A stretch of 64,000 nt of DNA from Candidatus Hydrogenedentota bacterium (GCA_012523015.1 JAAYJI010000005.1:871-64870); one strand, 5' to 3'. Positions 4,202 to 52,028 are shown, numbered from the stretch's first letter. Made by a program: numbers and translations. The notes: generated from the letters alone by a model not told the origin.

Positions 4202-6076
4202 CTACGGTGTCGCCGTCGTGTTGGGATAATACTGCATGCGGAATTTTACGGCGAAGTCAGGCGACGCAGTACCCGTCAAAGTGATGCGGGATAATATCCC
4301 TTTTTTCTTGTTTGCTTTACAGATATCTTCCAGACTTTCCACCGCAAAGCTGCCCCCGTCACTTTGGATTTCGAGGGTGCCCGTGTCGGTCATAATCCGT
4401 ACCGTATCACCCTCGGCTTCTACGCGCTGCCAGGTCATGAGCGCTTCTTCCACGTCAAAGCTTCCTTCTTGGAAGTGAAAACGATCTTGCAGCGTCAAGC
4501 CTTGGGCCTGCAGTTGGATGATTCGTTCGGCCTCTTCTAATTCGGCCATAGCATAGGCGGCTTCAAAACGGATGCGTGTTCCTTTGTCGCCAAGCTGTTC
4601 AATGCTTCCGCTGCTGCGGGGACCCGTAGCCTGCAGCTTCCCTTGAATCCGTGGAACGCTGTGACCGTAGGAATTTGCAAAAATACTTTCATAGCGTTTG
4701 CCGCTGAAATAATCCCGGTTATACAGGCCCGCGCCGGGATCACAGAGATAAACCACTCCGTCTACGGCAACAATGAAACTGCCCACATCGTTATTATTAT
4801 GAGGTTCCGCGTTGTGACCCGCTTTCGCGATGACAGTCAGCGTGCCGCCTGAGACAGGGGTGGAGAGTTTGATGATTCCCGATTCGGGAAGGAACAGATC
4901 GGTGATGGGCAAATCTTTTTCAACGGTTTCTATTTCCCATAAGATATTGCGCAAGGCAAAATGGAATTGCCCTTGGGGCTGCGGCGAAGCCAACGCGGCA
5001 AGGGCTTTATTGCCCGTTCGTTTCGACAGATGACCGGCAAGGTAGGCGTCGATGGTGTTGCGTTCTTGGGAGTCGGCGAAGCTGGCGTAGGTGTTATTGC
5101 CTAAATAGACGGATAGGGGATAGGCGGCAATGGACGGCATTTTCTCATGGGCAAGCAAGTCAATTGCGCCTGCCGTGCGCACGCGCAGCATCTCCGCAAA
5201 GACCACATATTCACTGAGACCGTAACTCCAATAGCCTATGCCTTCCAAACAGGAGCCGTCTGTATGAAAACCCTTGTCAATAAAGCGTTCCAATTGTTGC
5301 ACAATCAGTGCCAGCGCTTGGGCAAGACGATCCTCGTCCTTTTCATAGAGGAGAAAGGCTTGTCCTACCGACCCGGCGCATACGCCCGTCCAATTGTTGA
5401 GTCCTCGGCTCCAGCCGTATTTTTCGCCATAGGTGAGGAAGGGGTCGAAAATACGGCGCGTTAATTCCTGATGAACACGTTCATGAATTTCTTTGGGTAA
5501 GGTATCGCCCAAGGTCGCGGCAATTTGCGCGAGCCAAGCGCCTGTTTCAGCGGCGGCAAGATCAATATAGGATGCATCTTTTTCGTGTGCAGGGAGAACC
5601 CAAGATGTTTCCTCGCAAATAGACCAGATCAGATCATTCACCCGATCCAAGCGCGTCAGATCATTGCTGAGCAATAGGACGAGGGCTTCACGGGCGAGCA
5701 AACTCCTTTTTTCGAAATAAGGCGTTTGAAAAGCGCTTCGGTCACCGGTCTTTTTAAATAGACGATACAAAGAGTAGGTGAGTTGGGGGAGTTCTGTCGT
5801 TGCTGCCGCCCCTTTGCCCCAGTCCACGAGCACAGCACTTACTGGCAGCGCGGCAAGCTCGCTTGGAGATAAGGCCTCCAATTCAGGGAAAAGCAGGGGG
5901 GAAGCGGGCGTGTTTTGCAGCAGCTGTTTCATCTGTTCTGCAGTCGGCCCCGCTGTTTCTTGCGGAGGACGCGCCTCTTCTCCATAGGCGGGAGCGAAGG
6001 CTGCGATGGAAAAATAAACCAGTGTCACAAGAGTGGCGCACACAAAATACGGTGGAGTTCGGTCGTTTTTAATCAT
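4202..6076 (-). CDS. Secreted heparinase II/III-like polysaccharide lyase family protein.
   Basis: N-terminal signal peptide; C-terminal region GHNAEPHNNNDVGSFIVAVDGVVYLCDPG matches the heparinase II/III C-terminal signature (GHxHxDxxSF). Confidence 0.6.
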   Translation of the reverse strand: MIKNDRTPPYFVCATLVTLVYFSIAAFAPAYGEEARPPQETAGPTAEQMKQLLQNTPASPLLFPELEALSPSELAALPVSAVLVDWGKGAAATTELPQLTYSLYRLFKKTGDRSAFQTPYFEKRSLLAREALVLLLSNDLTRLDRVNDLIWSICEETSWVLPAHEKDASYIDLAAAETGAWLAQIAATLGDTLPKEIHERVHQELTRRIFDPFLTYGEKYGWSRGLNNWTGVCAGSVGQAFLLYEKDEDRLAQALALIVQQLERFIDKGFHTDGSCLEGIGYWSYGLSEYVVFAEMLRVRTAGAIDLLAHEKMPSIAAYPLSVYLGNNTYASFADSQERNTIDAYLAGHLSKRTGNKALAALASPQPQGQFHFALRNILWEIETVEKDLPITDLFLPESGIIKLSTPVSGGTLTVIAKAGHNAEPHNNNDVGSFIVAVDGVVYLCDPGAGLYNRDYFSGKRYESIFANSYGHSVPRIQGKLQATGPRSSGSIEQLGDKGTRIRFEAAYAMAELEEAERIIQLQAQGLTLQDRFHFQEGSFDVEEALMTWQRVEAEGDTVRIMTDTGTLEIQSDGGSFAVESLEDICKANKKKGILSRITLTGTASPDFAVKFRMQYYPNTTATP

Positions 6077-14106: not shown

Positions 14107-17100
14107 ATGAATACAAAAGAAAAACAACATACGATTGCCGGTCTTTTTGTGCTCCTGTTAATCATGGGAATCGCTGTCATCCTTCGGTTGGTCGGGATTA
14201 CCAAGGAGTCTTTGTGGTGGGATGAATACGCCAGCCATGTGTATTTGAATACGCCTACCCTTTCCGACTTCCTCGCGTGGAATCTAAGCCTTGATCCGCT
14301 CAGCCTGCCCAGTTATTACAGTCTGGAATATTGGTGGACACACTATGTGCATGATTCCGTATTGAGTCTTCGGCTTCTGAGTGTTCTTATCGGTGTTGCC
14401 GTCATTCCCCTCGTCTACGGATTGGGCAGACGCATGGTGAGCCGACGTGCAGGTTTGTTGGCGGCCGCGCTGGTCGCCCTGTCGCCCAACCATATACACC
14501 ACGCCCAAGGTATACGCGCTTACGTTCTGTTTATATTCCTTACCGCCCTGGTCGTGTGGACCTTTATCCGCCTTCTCGAGGAGCGGCGCTTGTCATGGTG
14601 GGCAGCCCATGCTATTGCCTGCCTGCTCTTGTATTGGACCCATGCCTTTTCGGTCTTACTGCCTCTTTCCTTAGGTATTTTTTTGCTATTTCGTTTGAAG
14701 GTGTGGCGCGGCTTTCTCTTTCAGTGGGGCATCGTGCAAGTGATTTTATTGGCGCCCACAGCCTTTTATCTTTCCACGCTTCGGTTCTGGCCGCAAGATA
14801 CCACAGCACGCTGGATTGCACTGCCGGGCGTCTTATCCCTTGGCGCTGATCTCTTCTTCGACGATATTTCCGCCTTTCATTGGCAGTTTCGATTGGGCGC
14901 GATAGCAGCTTCCTTGGGATCGCTGCGCGTGGTTGTTGACCTTGTCTTTGCCGTACTGATCCTAGTCGGTCTTTTACAAGTTGCGGCGAGTGGGGCGCGA
15001 AAGAAGACACAAGATTCCGCCTCCAAAAATAACTATGGACTCCTTTTTTATCTCTGGCTTCTTATCTCGCCCATAAGTTTATTTATACTGTCTTGGACAA
15101 TGCGCCCTTGTATGTTTCCGCGCTATACGATTCATAGTACCCTTGCCTTATACCTGCTTTTGGGCGCAGCATTTGGAGCGTCCAAAATTCCCGGTCGCCG
15201 TCTCGTATTGCCCTTGCTCCTTTGCGGACTCATGTTTCTCCAATGGTTTTGGCTGCAGCCGGGTCCGCAGCGCAGCGATTGGCGTTCCGCCGCACTCTTC
15301 CTTCAAGAACAGGCTGCGCCTCACGATGTATTGCTGGTTAAGAACAGGCTTAGCCGAAATATTTTTCTACACAATATGGAAGTATTGACACCGCAAAACC
15401 TAGAGATTCCTGTGGCTTCAGCGAGTACTTATTCCCTTTTAGCCGCGCAGACTGCTCTGTGTCTAGGCATACTTCCTTCGGAGACGGAAGACACACGAGT
15501 CTGGGTGCTCGTGGCTATGGACTATTTTGAGCCGGGCCCGCCCCAAGATTTTGAGCGTTATCTTGAAGAATGGTCTATTCCTTTTGAACGCTGGTCTTTT
15601 CCTGCCATTCGCGAAATCTATATCTATCGCATGGACAGGGGAACGGCAGCCCTGCCCGATTCTATAGAAGCTTTATATACGGACTCGGACATCAAAAAAG
15701 ACAGCTTAGCGGGAGACCTGGAGCATCACAGCATGCAAGCTTTCGGAGAGCTTGCAACGGCTCTGGCTTTGCAAGGAGAACGAGAGGCGGCAAAAGAAAT
15801 CTTTGACGGTATTTTTAAGATCAATACCTTCGCCAAAGAAATCTATGGGAATTTTCGTAAAGCCTTGGATGCGGCTGAAGAACTCGATACCAAGGCAGCA
15901 GCCATCGAAACGCTTTGGCAAGCCTATGGTTTGCGCAAGAATGTTCAGCCGCGCCTCATGCTGCAGGCGTTTCAAAAGGCGGCGGCTTTGGATCCCATGC
16001 TTGCCCTCGCTCATGTCGAAATAGGGCTGGAGCTGGCACAACAAGGAACCTATACCGAAGCGAGAGAAGCGTTACTGCTTGCAATGAATGCCGATGATCG
16101 GTATCGTGATATGCTCTCCAGTCTCGTTGATGCATTGGCAAATGGTCAGGACATTCCCGCAAAATTAAGCGCTGTTATGGACTATCGTGAGGCGCTTTTA
16201 GCACTCAGCACCGGCGACACGGAAAAAGCGCAACGTATGCTGCAACATGCCCGCGCGACTGATCCCCAACTGGTTGCTGCTCAGCTTATGCTTGCCTATG
16301 TCTGGGTCGACGGGGACAGCGATGAAGACGTAGAAGCACTGCTGCAGCAGTATCTAAGCGCCACCGACCGTCCTCTTATTGATAGTTTTGCTTATCTTGC
16401 AATGATTCTAACTGAACATAACAACCTGGACCGCGCCGCCAACACCATGAAGATGCTTTTTGACACAGATACTCAGACCCGCAAGAGCTACGACAGTTTA
16501 GCGAAAGCCCTTGCATCGGGCGAAGGTGTGTCCGAAGCAGCGTTATCAATCCGCAGCATGTGGGAAGGCTTTGATGCAGCGGCGAATGCAAAGGAAGAAC
16601 AAGCGCTGAGCGCCTTTGCCAAAGCAGTGGAAATAAATCCCGACAATAACCCGGCGGCCCTTGAATTAGCGCTTCATCTGGTTGCTGCGAAGCGACAGGA
16701 AGAGGCGCTTCCCTTGCTTCTGCGTGTTGCTGAAAAAGACCCCGATTATAGGACGATGACCGAGTTTCTCATTCACGATATACGCAGCGGGGCTGATACG
16801 ACGGCGAGCCTCAACGGGATCAACGCCTATCGGCGCGGAATCCTTGCACAGAGCCGCGGCGAGTATGAAGAGGCGGTGACAGCGTTGGAGGAGGCGGTGC
16901 AGGCGGATCCGCGACTCGAAGCCGCCCATACGTCGCGGGTATTTAACTTAATTATTCTGCGTAGATTTGAAGAGGCGATGGCAGGGCTTAACCGCTATCT
17001 TGATGGAACAGAGCATCCGTCGCCCGGAGCCTTTGGGCTTCTTACCGTGCTTTACATTGCCAACAAGGATACGGAACAAGCCGTCGAGTCGTACCGGACT

Positions 17101-23521: not shown

Positions 23522-23836
23522 TCAAGCACCTTTCTCTGAGTCGGGAGCCTTAGCAACTGTACTTTTCGCCTTGGCTTTTGGCTTCGCTTTTGCCTTTGGT
23601 TTTGCCTTGGCTTTGGCAGGCGCTTTCACACGTTTGGGCAAAGAAACATAAAAGGTTTTGAGCAGTTCCAGAAGTTCCCCCAGACACAGACGCAATTCTT
23701 CGTCGTCGTTAATGCCCAGCGCAGCAGCGGCATCACAAAATTGTTGCCATTTCTCGTGATCCCACATCCCTTTGTTTTTTACGACAAAATTACTTGCGAG
23801 TTTTGCCAGTTGTTCAATCGTGTACGGTTCGGCCAT
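23522..23836 (-). CDS. Small basic protein with a histone-H1-like Lys/Ala/Pro-rich C-terminal tail; hypothetical nucleoid-associated or DNA-binding protein.
   Basis: 104 aa: an N-terminal 65-aa helical acidic domain followed by KRVKAPAKAKAKPKAKAKPKAKAKSTVAKAP. The DNA shows the matching GCC/TTT/GGC periodicity. Co-directional with and 211 nt upstream of cysE. Confidence 0.5.
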   Translation of the reverse strand: MAEPYTIEQLAKLASNFVVKNKGMWDHEKWQQFCDAAAALGINDDEELRLCLGELLELLKTFYVSLPKRVKAPAKAKAKPKAKAKPKAKAKSTVAKAPDSEKGA

Positions 23837-44523: not shown

Positions 44524-46371
44524 TTATTCTAAGGCGTCATGGATTATTTGCGCCAAGTTTCTGCTAATCGAAGGAACAGCGGCGAGTTGTTCCACAGAGG
44601 CTTTTTTGATTTCAGCGACCGAGCCGAAGGCACTCAACAATTGTCTTGCTCGTTTTGAGCCTATCCCGGGGATGGTAGTCAAAACACTGGTGAGTCTTGT
44701 TTTCGAACGTTTCTTTCGGTGATAAGTAATGGCGAAACGATGCGCCTCGTTTCTGACGATACTCAAAAGCCGAACGACCGAGCTATTCTGTTTCGGTATG
44801 ATCGGATTGCTTCGACCCGGTATGAAAAAGCGTTCAAAGGATGCGCTGTTATTTTTCCCGCTGCGCGCCTCGGCAATAGAGACGCACGCGAGCCTATCAA
44901 AACCAAGATCCTTAAGAATGGTATGGGCAACATTTAGCTGTCCCTTCCCGCCGTCAATGAGCACAAGGTCAGGCAGATCTTCCTGTCGTGAAATTTTACT
45001 ATAGCGTCTAAAGATTACTTCTCGCATCGATGCGTAATCATCTTGCCCTTCAATGGAGCGAATCATATAATGCCGGTAACAACTCTTTACCGGAACACCG
45101 CGCTCAAAAACGACCATGGCCGCCACGGTTGTATCGCCTTGGATGGTTGAGATATCGAAACATTCAATCCGATTGGGCAATACGGGTAAATGGAGCGTCT
45201 GTTGAATTTCTTCGAGGGTATTTTGAATCGCTTTTTCATGCCCCTTCCGTTCAATAAAGGCCTGACGGGCATTATCCGACGCTAATTCCACCAATCCGAT
45301 AAGGACGCCTTGTTTCGGTACACGCAAGGTGGTTGGAGCACCGCGCTGTTCACTGATGATTTCTGCGAGGATACTGCGTTCTTCCAAGTCGATGGGCACG
45401 AGAATTTCAGATGGGATAAAGGGCGTAGATTCATAATATTGCAATAAAAAAGAACTCAGCAGCTCCGGTAAAGGCGCTTCAATGCGATCAAAAGCGAAAC
45501 TTTTGCCGCCAACCATGGCGTTGTTACGATAATAAAGAACGTGGAGCTGCAAATAGTTTCCTTCTGCGTGATAGCCAAAGACATCTCTGTCTCGGGCACG
45601 CCGACCGTGTACGACACTGCGTTGCGGTTCCATGGTAGTATGCAGATCACGGAGCCGATCCCGTACCACTGCCGCCTCTTCGAAACGGAGCGCATCAGAG
45701 AGGGTGTTCATCTCTTTTAATAATTGTTCTTGGAGATCGCCGCTGCGGCCTTCTAATATGAGTAGTGCTTGCTGCACCAATGCCGCGTAATCCTCCTTGC
45801 TAATCAATCCTACGCAGGGAGCGTGACATTGTTTTATCTGATAATAGATGCACGGTCGTGTTCGGTTTGCCAGCACGTGGTTGGAACACACACGGAGCGG
45901 CACCAGTTTTTGGAGGCGTTTTATCGTTTCTCTTGCCGCTCGTGTATCATGATAAGGACCAAAATAACGCGCTTTATCTTTTTTTCTGCGGCGCACTACG
46001 GTCAGGCGAGGAAAGTTTTCTGTAGGATCCAGACGCAGGCTCACATAGGTTTTATCATCTCGTAGGCGAACATTATACCGTGGTTTATGCGCTTTGATGA
46101 GGGTGTTTTCGAGGAGCAGCGCCTCTTTTTCGGAAGAGACTCGTATATACTCTATAGAGGCGACGCGGCGCATGAGAAATTTCACACTGTATCTGCTATC
46201 GCTCTCATTGATATAATTGCGGATACGCGCGCGCAGGTTTTTTGCCTTGCCGATGTACATGATTTTGGCTGCCTCATCACGCATGATGTAGCAGCCGGGA
46301 GTTGTGGGCGCTGCATCGGCATCTTTCTTCAGCGCGGAAGAAATAATGTTGTTGTCTTGTTTGTCTTTCAT
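44524..46371 (-). CDS. uvrC: Excinuclease ABC subunit C.
   Basis: GIY-YIG domain (GCYIMRDEAAKIMYIGKAKNLRARIRNY), Cys-rich region, UvrBC-interaction domain, RNase H-like endonuclease domain and C-terminal HhH2 (GIGSKRARQLL). Confidence 0.95.
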   Translation of the reverse strand: MKDKQDNNIISSALKKDADAAPTTPGCYIMRDEAAKIMYIGKAKNLRARIRNYINESDSRYSVKFLMRRVASIEYIRVSSEKEALLLENTLIKAHKPRYNVRLRDDKTYVSLRLDPTENFPRLTVVRRRKKDKARYFGPYHDTRAARETIKRLQKLVPLRVCSNHVLANRTRPCIYYQIKQCHAPCVGLISKEDYAALVQQALLILEGRSGDLQEQLLKEMNTLSDALRFEEAAVVRDRLRDLHTTMEPQRSVVHGRRARDRDVFGYHAEGNYLQLHVLYYRNNAMVGGKSFAFDRIEAPLPELLSSFLLQYYESTPFIPSEILVPIDLEERSILAEIISEQRGAPTTLRVPKQGVLIGLVELASDNARQAFIERKGHEKAIQNTLEEIQQTLHLPVLPNRIECFDISTIQGDTTVAAMVVFERGVPVKSCYRHYMIRSIEGQDDYASMREVIFRRYSKISRQEDLPDLVLIDGGKGQLNVAHTILKDLGFDRLACVSIAEARSGKNNSASFERFFIPGRSNPIIPKQNSSVVRLLSIVRNEAHRFAITYHRKKRSKTRLTSVLTTIPGIGSKRARQLLSAFGSVAEIKKASVEQLAAVPSISRNLAQIIHDALE

Positions 46372-46437
46372 TTTGTATACAATACGGTAATTACCATTGT
46401 GTCTAGTAATAATTTCAGCGGTGTGGAATCACTATAC

Positions 46438-47142
46438 ATGAAACAATCCCAGTCCATTCAACAAAAGGGCGAACCCTCGTCATTATTCTTGTCCACTTTG
46501 ATAGCACTCGGATTCTTCCTGCTCTTAGTCAGTTTATCTGTGTGGCTTGGCGCATGGTTTTTTTGGGGGGCGCCTTATGGTAAAACGTGGCAAATCATTT
46601 TTTACGCAAGCTTTCTGGGCAGAGCAGCCACCGTCGGTGTTGGACGTGAATTCGGTTTCTCGCCCACGTTTTTATTTCTTTTGACGTCGGTGTCTGAATT
46701 TACAGTCGTTTGCCTGGTGTTTCCTGTTTTTGTAAAAGGCTATAAACATTTAACGCGTATTCCATACATTGGCACTACGTTGGACAACTTACATACCGTT
46801 GCCTTAAATTATAAACCCGTTATAGCCCCCTATGGATTCCTGGGATTGATGATTTTTGTCTTATTTCCTTTTTGGAGTACCGGTCCATTAGTAGGTTCTA
46901 TTCTCGGATATATTATAGGCATGTCAGTAGGACTTACGCTCGTCGCAGTAAATTCGGGAAATATTATCGCCATCGCCGCTTGGGTCTGGTTTTATGAATA
47001 CGTGAATAAATGGAATTCTGATGTGGCGACCATGATCCTTGTCGCTGTATTGCTTGTGGCGTTGCTCGGCGTCTTTTGGGGAACTAAGCGTAAGCAAAGT
47101 GTTTCCACCCCCCAAGGCGGCACGCCTTTAGATAAACCCTAG
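46438..47142 (+). CDS. Integral membrane protein (about 235 aa, 6-7 TM), function unknown.
   Basis: Strongly hydrophobic ORF beginning MKQSQSIQQKGEPSSLF.... The longer track ORF (from 46087) overlaps the uvrC 5' end antisense, so the internal ATG is the more likely start. Confidence 0.5.
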   Translation: MKQSQSIQQKGEPSSLFLSTLIALGFFLLLVSLSVWLGAWFFWGAPYGKTWQIIFYASFLGRAATVGVGREFGFSPTFLFLLTSVSEFTVVCLVFPVFVKGYKHLTRIPYIGTTLDNLHTVALNYKPVIAPYGFLGLMIFVLFPFWSTGPLVGSILGYIIGMSVGLTLVAVNSGNIIAIAAWVWFYEYVNKWNSDVATMILVAVLLVALLGVFWGTKRKQSVSTPQGGTPLDKP

Positions 47143-47409
47143 GATGCTGCCGGCAAGGAATGGAAAAGACTCGTTAAAAAAAACGGAATGATTTTATCCG
47201 CAATGATTTGCGCAGGTAAGATCATTTCGTTATCATAGCAAGCGGGCGTGCTGTAGATATAAACGCTCTTCAATTTTGCTTTAATAGGGCATAATGATAA
47301 GAATTTTATGATGTTTTCTATTAGACAACGCAAGATAGTAAACAACGGTACCATCATCCCCCGTGTTGGGTGATTGAAATATTATAGCGATACGAGGAAA
47401 ACTATTTTC

Positions 47410-49125
47410 ATGAAAATTGAACTCCTGTTTTTATATCTGTGCGTTATTATCAGCGCCGTTGTTGCCCTATCTGAGCTCGTGCGCCCGGAAGCAGATTTCA
47501 GCGTGCAGCCTGCTTCAGGCGAAGCTCCCCTGCAAGTCGAATTCCAGAACAATTCTTATGGACGGATGCTGCCTATTACCCGATATTCCTGGGACTTTGG
47601 AGATGGTACACCAACCGAATCCGCAAAAGAACCCCGGCACACCTATACAAAAGCGGGTAAATATACGGTTAGCCTAACCGCATACAGCCTGTGGTTTAAA
47701 AAGGAAGTGAAAAAAGCTGAGGCCGTCACAGTTACCGCAAGAGATTCAGATGTCAGCCCTGACTTTATTGCCTTAACAAGAACCGGGGCTGCGCCGCTGA
47801 CGGTTCAGTTTGTTGACGTGTCTCGGAGTGGTCAACATCGTGTCCGGGGGGTTCTATGGGAATTTGGGGATGGCACAACTTCAGAAGTGCAAAATCCCAT
47901 TCATAGCTATGATGAACCGGGCTTATATTCCGTTTCTTTTGAACTCATATTGGACATAGGCCGATTTCGTGAAGTAAAGCGTGCCTATATTAAAGTTGAA
48001 GGAAATCAGACGGAAGGCGAAGGGGAAGCCGAAGCTGAGGGTGAAGGCGAAGAAATTATTGAGGGTGAGGGCGAAGAGATCGTTGAAGGCGAAGGGGAAG
48101 CCGAAGCTGAAGGTGAGGGCGAAGAGATCGTTGAAGGCGAAGGCGAAGAGATCACTGAAGGTGAAGGCGAAGAAATCGTTGAAGGTGAAGGCGAAGAAAT
48201 TATTGAGGGCGAAGGCGAAGAGATAACTGAAGGTGAAGGAGAAGAAATTGCTGAGGGCGAAGGCGAAGAGATAACTGAAGGTGAAGGCGAAGAGATCGTT
48301 GAGGGCGAGGGCGAAGAAATTATTGAAGGCGAGGGCGAAGATGTGCCTGTGGAACCGCAGTCTCCAACACTTCGTATGAAACACACCGTAGACACAGACT
48401 ATCAATATGAGGCCGGCGCAGAAATAGTCTTTACTGTTACCTTGGAATTTGAAGGCGAAATAGAGCTTAGTTCTTTGGTCGTGCAAGAGCAATTGCCGGG
48501 GTCATGGGTTTTTCAAGGGATCGTTGATGACGGCGGCTTAGCTGCGTCATCCGACATCGGATCAGAAGACTTGTTAGAATTTTCTTGGTCGTCACCCTTC
48601 ACCTTTCCTTTGACATTCAGCTATCGCCTTAAAGCTCCCGATGAGGAAGCAATTGTTTTATTCCCTCCCATAGCCGTGTACGAAGCGGAGGGGGAGCTTT
48701 TGAGTTCCAATGAGGTAGAAACACAACTGCGCAGCTATCAGACCATATTTGTACTTGATCGCGAGGTTGGTGCGTATACTCCCGGCGAAATAATAGAGAT
48801 CACCGTATTTTTTGAGGCGTTTGGAATTGAATCGCCGCTGGTCTTTGGATTAGTTGAGACGCTTCCCGAGGGCTGGTCTTTTGTTGAATGTGTCAATGGT
48901 CTGGGGACACTGCCCGATGTCTTACCCGATGAAGGTACTGAGGGAGACTTAGAATTCTCTTGGTTTACGCCGCCCGCCATACCGGGTTCAATGAAATATA
49001 AAGTATTGGTTCCGGAAAGCTTTGAGGGACCGGGAAAACTTTATGGATACGGCTTGTATCGTTTCACCGATTCTATGTTTCAAACTGCCGGTTTAGAAAG
49101 CCTGATCCCAAGAACAATACACTAA
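47410..49125 (+). CDS. Secreted repeat protein: signal peptide, two PKD domains, an acidic (EGEGEEIx)n tandem-repeat linker, and two copies of a roughly 100-aa C-terminal repeat domain.
   Basis: Start at [22 protein letters not shown] (GAGGAAAA RBS); two PKD motifs WDFGDGT...Y.V.L and WEFGDGTTS...Y..PG.Y.V; about 14 copies of EGEGEEI[IVTA]; C-terminal duplication (LPGSWVFQG...LEFSWSSP // LPEGWSFVE...LEFSWFTP). Confidence 0.7.
48013..48342 (+). repeat. Near-perfect 24-bp tandem repeat array (about 13.7 copies) inside the 47410 CDS, encoding (E-G-E-G-E-E-I-x)n.
   Basis: Unit gaaggYgaRggcgaagaRatYRYt repeated head-to-tail with only wobble/third-position variation and occasional GCC GAA GCT (AEA) variants; ends at GAA GAT GTG CCT. 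Confidence 0.9.
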
Positions 49126-49305
49126 AATCTTGAGAGATCATTTGTTTTTGGCGCAAAGGTCGTAGCATTGGCAGCGATAAGTTGCACACAACTCCGTGTG
49201 TTCGGATAATTTAGATAGGATAATCATAGAGATTATGGTATCCTTTGCTCGATCCGGTGTGGACAAGATCGAAGCATAAAAACATACATTAAAAGGATAA
49301 AGAGG

Positions 49306-50622
49306 ATGAATAGTTTTAGACCGTTAGTTTTTATTCCGCTGATTATTCTTATTGCCGGAATACACGGATACACTGAGGAAGCTGTGCGTATTACCTCCGA
49401 TATCGGCATGGACAGCCGTGTGTTGGTAGCTGTGCCCAACTTCGCCGTATCTGATGCGCAATTTGTCAGTATTGCCGCGGAAATGACCCAAGCCGTCTCC
49501 GATGACCTTGAATTTTCCGGACTTTTTGTAGCCCTGCCGCCGGCACGATATCCCGCAGGATTCACCGGAATTGAAGCCAACGTCAGTGCCATCGATTTGC
49601 CCGCATGGCGCGCGACCCGTGCGGAAAATTTGGTACATGGCTACATTTATCAGGATGGCGATTCATTGGTAGCGCAATTTCGGCTCTTTGACCTCTATAG
49701 CAATACACAACTTTATGGTCAAGAAATCCGCGTCGACAGAAGCCATTATCGTTTGGCTTCCCACCGTTTCACAGAAGAGGTCATCCGTGTGGTCGACGGG
49801 GTGCCCGGTATCGGTACTTCAGAAATCGTTTTTGCAGGCATTTCCGGGCCCGGCGTCAAAGAAATTTATGTTGCAGATTATGATGGCGCAAATGTGCGGC
49901 GCCTAACCAATCACAATTCCCTGTCTATCATGCCGGAAATATCGCCGAACGGCTCAGATATCGTTTATCTCTCGTACAAAGACCGTTACAGTTTTCTTTA
50001 CGTGTTGAATCGCGCCACAGGCGCTACCCATCCCTTATCAAAAGAAGTGGGGCTCAACAGCGCCGCCATGTGGGCGCCGGATAATGAACGTTTAGCCATG
50101 ACCCTGAGTAAAGACGGGAACGCAGAAATATATTTGCGCAACAAAAACGGGTCCAATACGCTACGTCTAACCAACAATCGGGATGGCGACACGTCGCCTT
50201 GTTTTTCGCCTGATGGCGGCCGGATCGCATTCGTGAGTGACCGTGCCGGGCGGCCGCAAATTTATGTCATGAATGCTGACGGCTCGAACCAAAACCGCTT
50301 GTCCTTCCATGGCGGCTCCGCCTATGATCCGGTTTGGTCGCCTGATGGAAAGATGATTGCTTTTGTATCGTCTATTTCAGGCGAAGGTCTAGAAATTTAT
50401 GTGATGGGCGCCGATGGTTCGAATCCGCAGCGGCTTACAAACTCGCCCGGTATCAATGAAGCGCCTTGTTGGTCGCCCGATTCACGGCATATTGCCTTTA
50501 CTTCAAGCCGTCGGGGCCGTCCCGAATTGTGGGCTATTACCTTGAGCACCATGACGGAAAAAGCGGTCTCCCGCGTTGAGATGCCCGCAGAAGGACCCAG
50601 TTGGGGACCGCGCCGTAAATAA
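49306..50622 (+). CDS. tolB: Tol-Pal system beta-propeller protein TolB.
   Basis: Signal peptide, TolB N-terminal domain, and six-bladed propeller with recurring P.FSPDG..IAF.S.R.G...IYVM..DGSN..RLT motifs. Confidence 0.85.
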   Translation: MNSFRPLVFIPLIILIAGIHGYTEEAVRITSDIGMDSRVLVAVPNFAVSDAQFVSIAAEMTQAVSDDLEFSGLFVALPPARYPAGFTGIEANVSAIDLPAWRATRAENLVHGYIYQDGDSLVAQFRLFDLYSNTQLYGQEIRVDRSHYRLASHRFTEEVIRVVDGVPGIGTSEIVFAGISGPGVKEIYVADYDGANVRRLTNHNSLSIMPEISPNGSDIVYLSYKDRYSFLYVLNRATGATHPLSKEVGLNSAAMWAPDNERLAMTLSKDGNAEIYLRNKNGSNTLRLTNNRDGDTSPCFSPDGGRIAFVSDRAGRPQIYVMNADGSNQNRLSFHGGSAYDPVWSPDGKMIAFVSSISGEGLEIYVMGADGSNPQRLTNSPGINEAPCWSPDSRHIAFTSSRRGRPELWAITLSTMTEKAVSRVEMPAEGPSWGPRRK

Positions 50623-50682
50623 TAGAATAAATTGCGGTTCCTTCCGAATCCGTGTGTATTATCACTGTCACTAATTGTTGCC

Positions 50683-51600
50683 ATGAAAAAAAGTTCTTTC
50701 AAATGGATGTGCTGCCTGCTGTGCTTGGTTGCGAAACACTGTTTGTTCGCGACACAGGCCTATGGTGATCTCATTGTTTTGGAGAATAAGGAGACCTTGT
50801 CGGGAAGTTTTTCGCGGATTAAAAATAATACCCTCGTTTTTCGAACCTCCTTGGCTGGTCAGATGATGACGCCCTTGGAAAACGTGAAACAAATCTCGTC
50901 CACGGCGCCGTTATACGTAGAGATGGAGAACGGTCAGGTTTATTTCGGTCGATTAGCGGTTCGGCAGGACAGGCAAGTTATTGAGCCTCTAGATGGCGGC
51001 TCCGCTCACAACATTCAGATAACCGATATTAAAGAGACTTTACCTATACCCACCGTACCGGAGGGGATAAAGGAGGAAGACAAAGAAGCGTGGCTTACAG
51101 ATGCTCTTCCTGATATTCAAAAAAGTGACGGCTATCCTTCTCTCAGCGATAAAAACTTGCAATTTGATGCGTCGGGAAAATCAGGCCCGTGGGATGCTGA
51201 AGAACCTTATCCTGATAAAGGGGAAGGAGGGCACCGTCTCGTTTCGCCCACCAATCTGGGAGAGCCCATCGATAAATCCGAAACCCATCCCGGATTAAGC
51301 TTAAATTTTGAAGCGGGGCAAGACACGACCTCGCCTGCCACGAAAAAAATAGAAGCGCCTCTCATTGAAGGAGCCGAGCAGCAACGTCTGAAAACAGCCC
51401 ATAGAGAAGAGGTAACGACAGGAGCGCAAGAGCAACGGGAAGACAGCACCGCTCCGTTGACTTCACCCTTTGGGTATCAACTCCGTGTGCGTGCCTTTCC
51501 GCAACCTCAAAGCAGCGATGAAAAAAGTGGTGAATCCGCCAAGCCCAAGGCGTATCGGATGCCGCCTGCGCCGCCGCTGCGCCTGCGTTACAGGATGTGA
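50683..51600 (+). CDS. Secreted hypothetical protein with a Pro-rich, low-complexity C-terminus.
   Basis: Start at MKKSSFKWMCCLLCLVAKHCLFATQAYG (signal peptide); the C-terminal half is polar/Pro/Glu-rich without a recognisable domain (not an OmpA/Pal domain). Confidence 0.4.
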   Translation: MKKSSFKWMCCLLCLVAKHCLFATQAYGDLIVLENKETLSGSFSRIKNNTLVFRTSLAGQMMTPLENVKQISSTAPLYVEMENGQVYFGRLAVRQDRQVIEPLDGGSAHNIQITDIKETLPIPTVPEGIKEEDKEAWLTDALPDIQKSDGYPSLSDKNLQFDASGKSGPWDAEEPYPDKGEGGHRLVSPTNLGEPIDKSETHPGLSLNFEAGQDTTSPATKKIEAPLIEGAEQQRLKTAHREEVTTGAQEQREDSTAPLTSPFGYQLRVRAFPQPQSSDEKSGESAKPKAYRMPPAPPLRLRYRM

Positions 51601-52028
51601 GACTTCAGTAAAAAGAGGCTCCTTTTGATAAAATAGAAACGCACCGGTCCCAATACGGTATAATTTCGACAAAACCCGAATCCATGAAAATTTATCGGAT
51701 AAGTTTGGGTTCCTTCTTTTTTTAGAATTGTTCAGGAGTTGCAGGGGTTTTTTCGCCGGGATGCTATACCATAGCGTTCGGAAGGATGATGCCGGACTGA
51801 CTACAAAGCGGTCACGCCGGTTTTTTGTACCATGCGGGAACCGGGAAAGTGCCGCATTAATATAGACATAATAGACATTCATTTATAAAAAATTATCAAG
51901 GTTGTTCATTTAGGTATAATACAGTCTTTTATTGGAGCGACGGTTTGCCCACAATCGAAATCTGAAAGCAAAAGGGGGAGAGATAAGATTTTTGTGCGGT
52001 CCTTACCCGTCTTTATGGAGTTTGATAC

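What the first reader, a model, noticed from the sequence alone, without database searches (positions are those of the whole stretch)
47410..49125. PKD-domain surface protein with a hyper-acidic (EGEGEEIx)14 linker encoded by a near-perfect 24-bp tandem repeat
The 330-bp array (48013-48342) consists of about 14 head-to-tail 24-bp units with almost only synonymous variation. That pattern is a hallmark of recent expansion and of slipped-strand (VNTR-like) length variation, which could vary the spacer length of a surface protein between strains. The encoded stretch carries about 60 Glu residues and could act as a rigid polyanionic stalk or a Ca2+/metal-binding element. It separates two PKD domains from a duplicated roughly 100-aa C-terminal domain (LPGSWVFQG...LEFSWSSP / LPEGWSFVE...LEFSWFTP) of unknown family.
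Basis: seen in the sequence. Interest (0 to 1): 0.55.

Follow-up and report, generated by a model that had tools for sequence, protein, structure and literature searches.

The report
Size-variable acidic linker in envelope protein
An exported protein of an uncultured Hydrogenedentota bacterium has a floppy, strongly negatively charged spacer encoded by a 24-base repeat, and public assemblies show 14, 20 or 25 repeat copies in otherwise identical DNA, a familiar kind of repeat-length variation seen here in a little-studied phylum.

Summary
ORF 47410-49125 (+) encodes 571 aa: a signal peptide, two PKD domains, fourteen in-frame 24-bp units (48013-48348, peptide EGEGEEIx, 55 Glu in 110 aa) and two related C-terminal beta-sandwich domains.

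"Near-perfect" is true only of the peptide. The DNA units are 78% identical and their third codon positions are close to randomised, so this is not the mark of a recent expansion.

The predicted length variation does appear. Assemblies found through exact copies of the flanking genes carry 14, 20 or 25 units in identical flanks. Each difference is a whole-unit deletion bounded by a 44- or 116-nt exact repeat. Short-read assembly collapse is not fully excluded.

AlphaFold predicts the linker as disordered coil, not a rigid stalk. Orthologues in other Hydrogenedentota keep an acidic Glu-Gly spacer at the same place, but its period and length differ.

Verdict: a real but ordinary size-variable coding repeat, analogous to the staphylococcal SD-repeat regions. 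Function untested; interest is modest.

The parts
47410..49125 (+). CDS, 571 aa. It is identical to NCBI NLO31789.1, 'MAG: PKD domain-containing protein [Candidatus Hydrogenedentes bacterium]'.
47410..47475 (+). N-terminal hydrophobic signal or anchor segment (aa 1-22, [21 protein letters not shown]). Distant orthologues have a lipobox L-x-G-C here; this lineage has Ser at the aligned position (VALS|ELVRP).
   Evidence: AlphaFold helix 3-24; orthologue N-termini. The cleavage site is inferred.
47479..47739 (+). PKD domain 1 (about aa 24-110)
   Evidence: Pfam PKD_4/PKD; AlphaFold pLDDT 85-95
47758..48000 (+). PKD domain 2 (about aa 117-197)
   Evidence: Pfam reports two stretches; AlphaFold strands 119-197
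48013..48348 (+). Array of 14 in-frame 24-bp units encoding (EGEGEEIx)n, a polyanionic spacer predicted to be disordered
48043..48158 (+). 116-nt stretch present twice, 264 nt apart, in the 25-unit allele. It marks the junction where the window allele lacks 11 units. The 44-nt junction relative to the 20-unit allele is 48043-48086.
48204..48287 (+). Longest exact direct repeat within the window allele: 36 nt at 48204 and again at 48252
48367..48732 (+). C-terminal beta-sandwich domain 1 (aa 320-441), CLIPPER/DUF11-like, with motifs LPGSW and LEFSW
48745..49107 (+). C-terminal beta-sandwich domain 2 (aa 446-566), with motifs LPEGW, LEFSW and GYGLYRFT
46438..47142 (+). Conserved upstream neighbour, a Sm_multidrug_ex-family membrane protein. 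UvrC lies beyond it on the minus strand at 44524-46371.
49306..50622 (+). Conserved downstream neighbour, a TolB-like protein (TolB_N plus PD40 propeller). It sits directly downstream in the window and in L002/L004, L005/L006, L007 and L020.

Best explanation
The gene encodes an exported cell-envelope protein of a diderm Hydrogenedentota bacterium. An N-terminal signal or anchor segment is followed by two PKD domains, a roughly 110-aa spacer and a tightly packed pair of CLIPPER/DUF11-like Ig domains. The spacer is disordered and polyanionic (50% Glu, 25% Gly, no basic residue). The Ig-domain pair is the family-specific, best-conserved module. In more distant orthologues the N-terminus is a lipoprotein signal. 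The spacer most likely acts as a charge-expanded flexible tether that keeps the two folded modules apart and sets how far the C-terminal pair can reach. What is selected is its composition (Glu and Gly plus an occasional hydrophobic residue or Pro), not a fixed fold. At the DNA level the array consists of old units scrambled at synonymous sites. It changes length in whole units by slippage or recombination between exact repeats of tens to about 100 nt, giving in-frame alleles of 14, 20 and 25 units on otherwise identical backgrounds. This is size variation, not on/off switching. Shown here: the domain architecture, the array anatomy, conservation of an acidic spacer across orthologues, and length differences among assemblies. 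Predicted: disorder of the spacer and the fold of the C-terminal domains. Inferred: export and localisation, the tether function, and the mutational mechanism.
For: Spacer: in the full-length model, residues 205-313 have pLDDT below 50 and are coil. Orthologues have acidic spacers of differing period and length: (EG)~45 in the syntenic Hydrogenedentota MAG L002, (EGEPx)~36 in P0008, (EGEPVEG)n in L003, (EGExV)n in P0012/L007, and 14-25-aa blocks in L005/L006. Acidic EGE-type runs occur in roughly 15 of the 124 proteins compared.
Selection: first and second codon positions of codons 1-5 are invariant while third positions are mixed. Codon usage in the array equals that of the genome: GAA:GAG is 40:15 in the array and 497:217 in 13 long ORFs. 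The synonymous-shuffle test gives 0.777 observed against 0.747 shuffled.
Length variation: contigs found through exact copies of the neighbouring proteins carry different unit counts.
- 14 units: the window, L001 and L015.
- 20 units: L009/L012.
- 25 units: L010/L013 and L014.
Their flanks are identical over about 5.5 kb upstream and 2.5-5.2 kb downstream. The unit strings are ABCADEFCFGABFCADEHGIJIKLM, ABCFGABFCADEHGIJIKLM and ABCADEHGIJIKLM. Each difference is a single in-frame deletion bounded by a 116- or 44-nt exact repeat.
A relative about 95% identical (L020) also has 25 units and shares the inner block DEFCFGABF, so the long allele is real and probably ancestral. In a sister species, L005 and L006 differ by block indels of 25 and 14 aa. 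As a control, the short non-repetitive linker of P0010 has the same length in 7 strain variants.
Diderm context: TolB-like and LptC genes lie nearby.
Against: All length alleles come from short-read metagenome assemblies. A 116-nt exact repeat could be collapsed by an assembler. Several assemblies break or carry N runs at such arrays (L003, L011, L016-L019). Some of the contigs may come from overlapping read sets. No experiment or read mapping supports export, localisation or tether function. The window protein lacks both the lipobox Cys and any recognised C-terminal anchor, so it may not be surface-tethered at all. A regularly spaced Ile plus a hydrophobic residue in every 8-mer leaves room for a cation-induced structure that AlphaFold would not see.
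Confidence: 0.6

Rival explanations
1. Assembly artefact. The true array in all these populations has one length, probably 25 units. The 14- and 20-unit versions, including the window, would then be collapses by short-read assemblers, and the array would not be polymorphic.
For: The 25-to-14 difference is exactly a loop between two 116-nt exact repeats, which is the typical signature of a collapse. The flanks of all contigs are identical, as expected if one sequence were being assembled in different ways. Logan contigs end at the array edges and L003 has Ns inside its repeat.
Against: The 20-unit allele needs a jump across only a 44-nt repeat, yet it lies in a contig named k141. The 14-unit allele lies in a k127 contig (L015), and 127 exceeds 116 nt. 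Each length was recovered in two or three separate assemblies. Comparable block indels separate L005 from L006 in another species.
Confidence: 0.2
2. Structured cation-binding repeat. The 8-residue units EGEGEEI[hydrophobic] would fold, with Ca2+ or another metal, into a regular solenoid or beta-roll-like rod.
For: Carboxylate density is very high (55 Glu in 110 aa). The hydrophobic pair at positions 7-8 is strictly periodic and under purifying selection.
Against: No Pfam or NCBIfam hit to RTX/HemolysinCabind or to any other repeat fold. AlphaFold gives pLDDT 34-41 and coil. Orthologues replace the 8-mer with periods of 2, 5, 7 or 14-25 residues, including pure (EG)n, which does not fit a conserved repeat fold. 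Alleles of 14, 20 and 25 units are all tolerated.
Confidence: 0.07
3. Neutral low-complexity insertion. The array would be a tolerated by-product of replication slippage with no role of its own, and its length would drift.
For: Length and unit type vary freely among orthologues, and one orthologue (P0009) has no acidic run at all. No function has been demonstrated.
Against: An acidic Glu-Gly spacer is kept at the same inter-module position in almost all orthologues. Within the array the amino acids are conserved while synonymous sites are close to randomised, which indicates purifying selection on the peptide.
Confidence: 0.13

Closest known systems
Ser-Asp (SD) repeat 'R regions' of staphylococcal Clf/Sdr MSCRAMM adhesins
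   Same: Both are long acidic low-complexity spacers between folded Ig-like modules and the anchor. Both are encoded by short in-frame tandem units. Length differs between strains by insertion or deletion of whole units and is used for typing (PMC3025037; PMC3794999). My own knowledge: the 18-bp SD units are degenerate at third codon positions, and a minimum length is needed for display through the wall.
   Different: Here the peptide is Glu/Gly-based with an 8-aa unit, the organism is a diderm Hydrogenedentota, and there is no LPXTG anchor. The folded domains are not homologous to the Clf/Sdr A domains, and no glycosylation system is evident. The resemblance is analogy, not family membership.
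CLIPPER / DUF11 domain (PF01345; PDB 9IFR), a CnaA-like Ig stalk domain of fibrillar adhesins
   Different: The score of 16-17 bits is below the Pfam cutoff of 24.6. The first-strand Lys is present in only 5 of 9 orthologues for domain 1 and is absent in domain 2, so an isopeptide bond is unproven and not general. Here the domains form a terminal packed pair, not a long stalk.
NPCBM-associated NEW3 domain (PF10633), E-set Ig-like clan
   Same: 23 of 35 relatives of the C-terminal domain match it, with a best E-value of 2.7e-10.
   Different: The window protein itself gives no NEW3 hit at E<=1. There is no glycoside-hydrolase context.
RTX nonapeptide Ca2+-binding repeats (GGxGxDxUx)
   Same: Both are Gly- and acid-rich short tandem peptide repeats with a periodic hydrophobic residue in exported proteins.
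   Different: Here the period is 8 rather than 9, the acid is Glu rather than Asp, no profile hit was found, the region is predicted disordered, and the period is not conserved in orthologues.
Fibrillar adhesins (signal peptide, stalk repeats, adhesive tip, anchor)
   Same: Both have a signal peptide and Ig-like PKD and CLIPPER-like modules, evolve fast, and contain repeats (PMC8286594 and PMC9210967, listed).
   Different: This protein is short (571 aa), has no recognised adhesive domain or anchor, and its 'stalk' is a disordered acidic linker rather than tandem folded domains.

Membership tests
PKD domain (PF18911 / PF00801) | Profile score above the Pfam gathering threshold | tested here: met
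   PKD_4 scores 92.5 bits against 27, and PKD scores 71.3 against 23.5; two stretches are reported. Both domains are modelled confidently.
CLIPPER / DUF11 (PF01345) | Profile score above the Pfam gathering threshold (24.6 bits) | tested here: not met
   15.9-17.1 bits, E=0.007-0.016. 10 of 35 relatives match at E<=0.01.
CLIPPER / DUF11 (PF01345) | CnaA-like Ig beta-sandwich fold | tested here: met
CLIPPER / DUF11 (PF01345) | Intramolecular Lys-Asn isopeptide bond with a catalytic Asp/Glu. This feature is optional even within the family. | tested here: inconclusive
   Domain 1 has a first-strand Lys (RMKHT) and an invariant Asn (SSNE). The Lys is kept in only 5 of 9 orthologues, and domain 2 has none.
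NPCBM_assoc / NEW3 (PF10633) | Profile score above the gathering threshold | tested here: not met
   The window protein gives no hit at E<=1. 23 of 35 relatives match, best E=2.7e-10. The relationship is therefore at superfamily level only.
Bacterial lipoprotein (SPase II substrate) | Lipobox [LVI][ASTVI][GAS]-Cys at the end of the signal peptide | tested here: not met
   The window has V-A-L-Ser where orthologues have L-[SHT]-G-Cys four residues before the conserved R/K-P. The 95% relative P0167 also has Ser. The only Cys, in LYLC, lacks a small residue at position -1.
Size-variable coding tandem repeat (VNTR in an ORF) | Unit length is a multiple of 3, and copy number differs between closely related genomes | tested here: met
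   The unit is 24 bp. Alleles of 14, 20 and 25 units occur in identical flanks, and all are in frame. Caveat: all evidence comes from short-read assemblies, so the variation has not been confirmed by reads or PCR.
Phase-variable contingency locus | A change in repeat number shifts the reading frame or the promoter spacing, switching the gene on or off | tested here: not met
   All observed changes are multiples of 24 nt and keep the frame. The array is internal to the ORF.
RTX Ca2+-binding repeats (HemolysinCabind) | Nonapeptide GGxGxDxUx repeats recognised by the profile | tested here: not met
   The period is 8 aa, there is no Asp, and Pfam at E<=1 and NCBIfam at E<=0.1 give no hit.
C-terminal sorting signals (T9SS CTD, PEP-CTERM, LPXTG/sortase) | A recognisable C-terminal signal domain or motif followed by a hydrophobic segment | tested here: not met
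   No NCBIfam or Pfam hit. The C-terminus ...[11 protein letters not shown] lies just past the last beta-strand of domain 2 and has no hydrophobic tail.
SD-repeat MSCRAMM (Clf/Sdr) | Ser-Asp dipeptide repeats, an N-terminal A domain of DEv-IgG folds, and an LPXTG anchor | tested here: not met
   None of the three features is present. Foldseek hits to ClfB and SdrG are generic tandem-Ig similarity with TM-scores of 0.3 or less.

The most novel reading that the evidence does not exclude
The array is a truly hypermutable spacer. Its indel rate would be far above the point-mutation rate, since three length alleles occur against zero SNPs in about 8-10 kb of flank. Populations of this digester bacterium would then always contain cells whose envelope protein has a different reach. 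That would tune the protein's interaction with a partner across the envelope, such as the TolB-like system encoded next door in the window and four other lineages, or let the cell evade a phage or predator that uses the protein as a receptor. This would be a size-variation bet-hedging device in a diderm candidate phylum, built on a lineage-typical Glu-Gly linker idiom.
Probability: 0.12. Interest if true: 0.55.

Novelty: new member of a known kind. Interest (0 to 1): 0.3.

Why it matters
The finding gives a concrete, checkable case of in-frame repeat-length variation in an envelope protein of Hydrogenedentota, a phylum whose cell-surface biology the literature searches here did not cover. It defines a small protein family conserved next to a TolB-like gene: PKD-PKD, an acidic Glu-Gly spacer, then a CLIPPER-like pair. 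It also flags a practical problem. Short-read assemblies of this locus disagree or break, so MAG-derived protein lengths here should not be trusted without long reads. The locus could serve as a strain marker for this widespread anaerobic-digester population. It does not reveal a new mechanism.

Tried and rejected
- Word-index homologue searches were nearly blind to this family. The C-terminal 260 aa alone returned nothing, not even the protein itself, and a 9-sequence profile returned 7 hits. The exhaustive representative search was what worked, with 621 hits.
- Exact look-ups of the window protein with either start codon found no contig. Going through the exact neighbouring proteins was what uncovered the other alleles.
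- The first alignment (A1) was too diverse for the genome scan.
- The metagenome scan found no same-species contigs, only orthologues.
- Rfam found nothing in the window.
- The promoter and terminator scan of 46300-51700 was at background level, so it says nothing about co-transcription with the TolB-like gene.
- PDB sequence search gave only a marginal CLIPPER hit.
- The afdb50 fold library was unavailable.
- Literature searches for Hydrogenedentes plus PKD, and for acidic-linker lipoproteins, found nothing specific.
- Rejected readings: RTX-like repeat, phase-variation switch, sortase/PEP-CTERM/T9SS cargo, and the antisense ORFs 47923..48492 and 48006..48395. The antisense ORFs are repeat-driven artefacts, since the homology and both flanking domains are in the + frame.

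Full report
**What is there**

The + strand ORF 47410-49125 encodes 571 aa from the ATG; an alternative TTG start lies at 47374. Tandem Repeats Finder reports one array at 48013-48341. At period 24 it has 13.7 copies, 77% matches and score 304. A 72-bp super-period has 82% matches and score 350. It is the only array of this kind in the 64-kb window.

Read in frame, the array is 14 units running 48013-48348:
- EGEGEAEA, twice
- EGEGEEI[I/V/T/A], eleven times
- a degenerate last unit, EGEGEDVP

The 110 aa contain 55 Glu, 28 Gly, 14 Ile and no basic residue. Pfam confirms two PKD domains upstream of the array (PKD_4 E=1.8e-26). The two C-terminal segments are related to each other (BLASTP E=2e-7). 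The exact protein is in NCBI as NLO31789.1, 'MAG: PKD domain-containing protein [Candidatus Hydrogenedentes bacterium]'.

**The DNA is not near-perfect and does not look recently expanded**

Mean pairwise identity between units is 78% (range 58-100%). Only two pairs of units are identical, and the longest exact direct repeat is 36 nt. First and second codon positions of codons 1-5 never vary, whereas most third positions are mixed.

Third-position identity between units is 0.53-0.64 at every offset and does not decay with distance. The GAA:GAG ratio in the array (40:15) matches that of 13 long ORFs in the window (497:217).

Shuffling synonymous codons among equal residues gives a mean unit identity of 0.747 +/- 0.005, against 0.777 observed. 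Shuffles reach the observed 36-nt repeat in 1.5% of trials and the two identical pairs in 0.2%. Most synonymous sites are thus close to saturation, and the peptide is held by purifying selection. Only a small residue of more recent block duplication remains.

**Length variation does appear**

Exact look-ups of the target protein found nothing. Exact look-ups of its two neighbours, the TolB-like and Sm_multidrug_ex proteins, returned a dozen contigs of the same population. In these the gene is 571, 619 or 659 aa long.

| Units | Protein length | Contigs |
|---|---|---|
| 14 | 571 aa | window; L001 (GCA_025563055.1); L015 (ERZ941570, a k127 contig, cut 188 nt after the array) |
| 20 | 619 aa | L009/L012 (ERZ27247376, a k141 contig) |
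| 25 | 659 aa | L010/L013 (JGI 3300015214); L014 (JGI 3300060803) |

Naming distinct 24-mers by letter, the three alleles read as follows:
- 25 units: ABCADEFCFGABFCADEHGIJIKLM
- 20 units: ABCFGABFCADEHGIJIKLM
- 14 units: ABCADEHGIJIKLM

Each shorter allele derives from a longer one by a single in-frame deletion:
- 25 to 14: 264 nt removed, bounded by a 116-nt exact repeat
- 25 to 20: 120 nt removed, bounded by a 44-nt exact repeat
- 20 to 14: 144 nt removed, bounded by a 44-nt exact repeat

The flanks of all non-window contigs but one are identical to each other over about 5.5 kb upstream and 2.5-5.2 kb downstream; L017 differs at 35 upstream positions. The cluster look-up shows the 659-aa and 619-aa forms on two contigs each.

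A relative with about 95% nucleotide identity (L020) also has 25 units and shares the inner block DEFCFGABF. The long form is therefore real and probably ancestral, and the window allele is a derived deletion.

In a sister species, two contigs that are 98-100% identical (L005, L006) differ by in-frame block indels of 25 and 14 aa in their linker. As a control, the short non-repetitive linker of P0010 has the same length in seven strain variants.

**Caveat on assembly**

All of this comes from short-read assemblies. A 116-nt repeat is collapsible. Logan contigs end at the array edges (L011, L016-L019), and L003 has a run of N inside its repeat.

Three points argue against simple collapse:
- The 20-unit allele needs a jump over only 44 nt, yet lies in a contig named k141.
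- The 14-unit allele lies in a k127 contig.
- Each length recurs in separate assemblies.

I put the probability that at least part of the variation is real at about 0.8.

**What the protein is**

A scan of species-representative genomes found a fully syntenic orthologue in a Candidatus Hydrogenedentota MAG (L002). The gene order there is UvrC(-), Sm_multidrug_ex, target, TolB-like, unknown, NadC. TolB-like also follows directly in L005/L006, L007 and L020. TolB-like and LptC genes nearby indicate a diderm envelope.

The exhaustive search with the C-terminal 261 aa found 621 representative proteins at E<=1e-3. Many are giant proteins with up to 18 matched stretches.

Close orthologues share the same plan: signal peptide, PKD-PKD, an acidic Glu-Gly spacer, and the C-terminal pair. 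They usually carry an extra module of about 190 aa that is absent here. The spacer differs in each:
- (EG)~45 in L002
- (EGEPx)~36 in P0008
- (EGEPVEG)n in L003
- (EGExV)n in P0012/L007
- 14-25-aa blocks in L005/L006
- (EG)8 in L008
- none in P0009

Roughly 15 of the 124 proteins compared contain acidic EGE-type runs. Composition and position are conserved; period and length are not. This argues for a compositionally selected flexible spacer and against a defined repeat fold.

The full-length AlphaFold model agrees. Residues 205-313 have pLDDT 34-41 and no secondary structure. The PKD domains and the C-terminal pair are confident. Residues 3-24 form a hydrophobic helix.

**The C-terminal domains**

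Among relatives, 23 of 35 match PF10633 (NEW3) and 10 of 35 match PF01345 (DUF11). The window sequence itself stays below the threshold at 16-17 bits against 24.6. DUF11/CLIPPER was recently characterised as a CnaA-like stalk domain of fibrillar adhesins. Some members carry a Lys-Asn isopeptide bond, and the domain is found with PKD_4 in surface proteins (10.1101/2025.04.25.650565).

Here the first-strand Lys of domain 1 is kept in only 5 of 9 orthologues, and domain 2 has none. An isopeptide bond is therefore unproven.

**Sorting**

No T9SS, PEP-CTERM or LPXTG signal is found, and the C-terminus lies just past the last beta-strand of domain 2, with no hydrophobic tail. All distant orthologues have a lipobox L-x-G-Cys. 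The window and its 95% relative have Ser at that position (VALS|ELVRP). This lineage is probably cleaved by signal peptidase I or retained by an uncleaved anchor; that is an inference.

**Mechanism proposed (confidence 0.6)**

The protein is an exported envelope protein in which a charge-expanded, disordered polyanionic tether separates a PKD pair from a CLIPPER-like pair. The tether's length changes in whole 24-bp units by slippage or recombination between exact repeats. This gives size variants, never frameshifts.

Rivals considered:
- assembly artefact (0.2)
- cation-induced structured repeat (0.07)
- neutral junk insertion (0.13)

**Comparison with known systems**

The closest functional analogue is the Ser-Asp repeat region of staphylococcal Clf/Sdr adhesins. 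Its length varies between strains by gain and loss of units (PMC3025037; PMC3794999). The present protein is not a member of that family. It is not an RTX protein, not a phase-variation locus and not a classical fibrillar adhesin (see the membership table).

**Verdict**

In kind it is a new member of a known class, size-variable acidic spacers in bacterial envelope proteins, so interest is modest (0.3).

Noticed in passing
window 48665-48668 (also 47724 and 50130): The window differs from every other assembly of this locus by a cluster of three substitutions within 4 nt (C,C,C against G,G,G). This turns LFRGIAVY into LFPPIAVY. Orthologues conserve the Gly. The cause may be a consensus or assembly error in the window's contig, or a private variant.
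   Followed up: partly
window 47464-47478 (aa 19-23): The lipobox Cys present in all distant orthologues (L-x-G-C) is Ser in the window and in the 95% relative L020/P0167. Tethering of the protein probably differs in this lineage.
   Followed up: partly
L020 array, units 5-13, compared with L013 array, units 5-13: A 216-nt inner block of the array (units DEFCFGABF) is identical in DNA between two lineages whose flanks differ by about 5%. The array ends differ. No explanation was established; conversion or exchange between lineages, or a DNA-level constraint, are possibilities.
   Followed up: no
L002 4483-6786; P0004, P0008, P0009, L005: Most orthologues carry an extra Cys-containing module of about 190 aa (motifs CPxxT, HWWGVE, FGWL, LAFCL) between the acidic linker and the C-terminal pair. 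It gives a weak DUF7901 hit (E=0.0011). The window protein lacks it.
   Followed up: partly
L003 about 5600-5700; ends of L011 and L016-L019: Short-read assemblies fail at these acidic repeats. L003 has a run of N inside its (EGEPVEG)n array, and five Logan contigs end exactly at the edges of the EGEGEEIx array.
   Followed up: yes
L003 1878-4313: The gene upstream of the L003 orthologue encodes an 811-aa protein with an EGE-rich run placed just before a C-terminal hydrophobic segment. This suggests that Glu-Gly runs are a recurrent linker idiom in these organisms.
   Followed up: no
window 49306-51600: A stand-alone TolB-like gene (TolB_N plus PD40) and a 322-aa protein with no Pfam match and a signal-like N-terminus follow the target. 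This pair recurs after the orthologue in L002/L004, L005/L006 and L020; in L007 only the TolB-like gene was detected. No other tol-pal genes are adjacent.
   Followed up: partly
window 47923-48492 (-) and 48006-48395 (-): Long antisense ORFs across the array (FAF.../SPSPS... peptides) are by-products of the repeat, not genes.
   Followed up: yes
window 23562-23614 and 15563-15603: Two other small tandem repeats were seen: 12 bp x 4.3 (CTTTTGCCTTGG) and 21 bp x 2.
   Followed up: no
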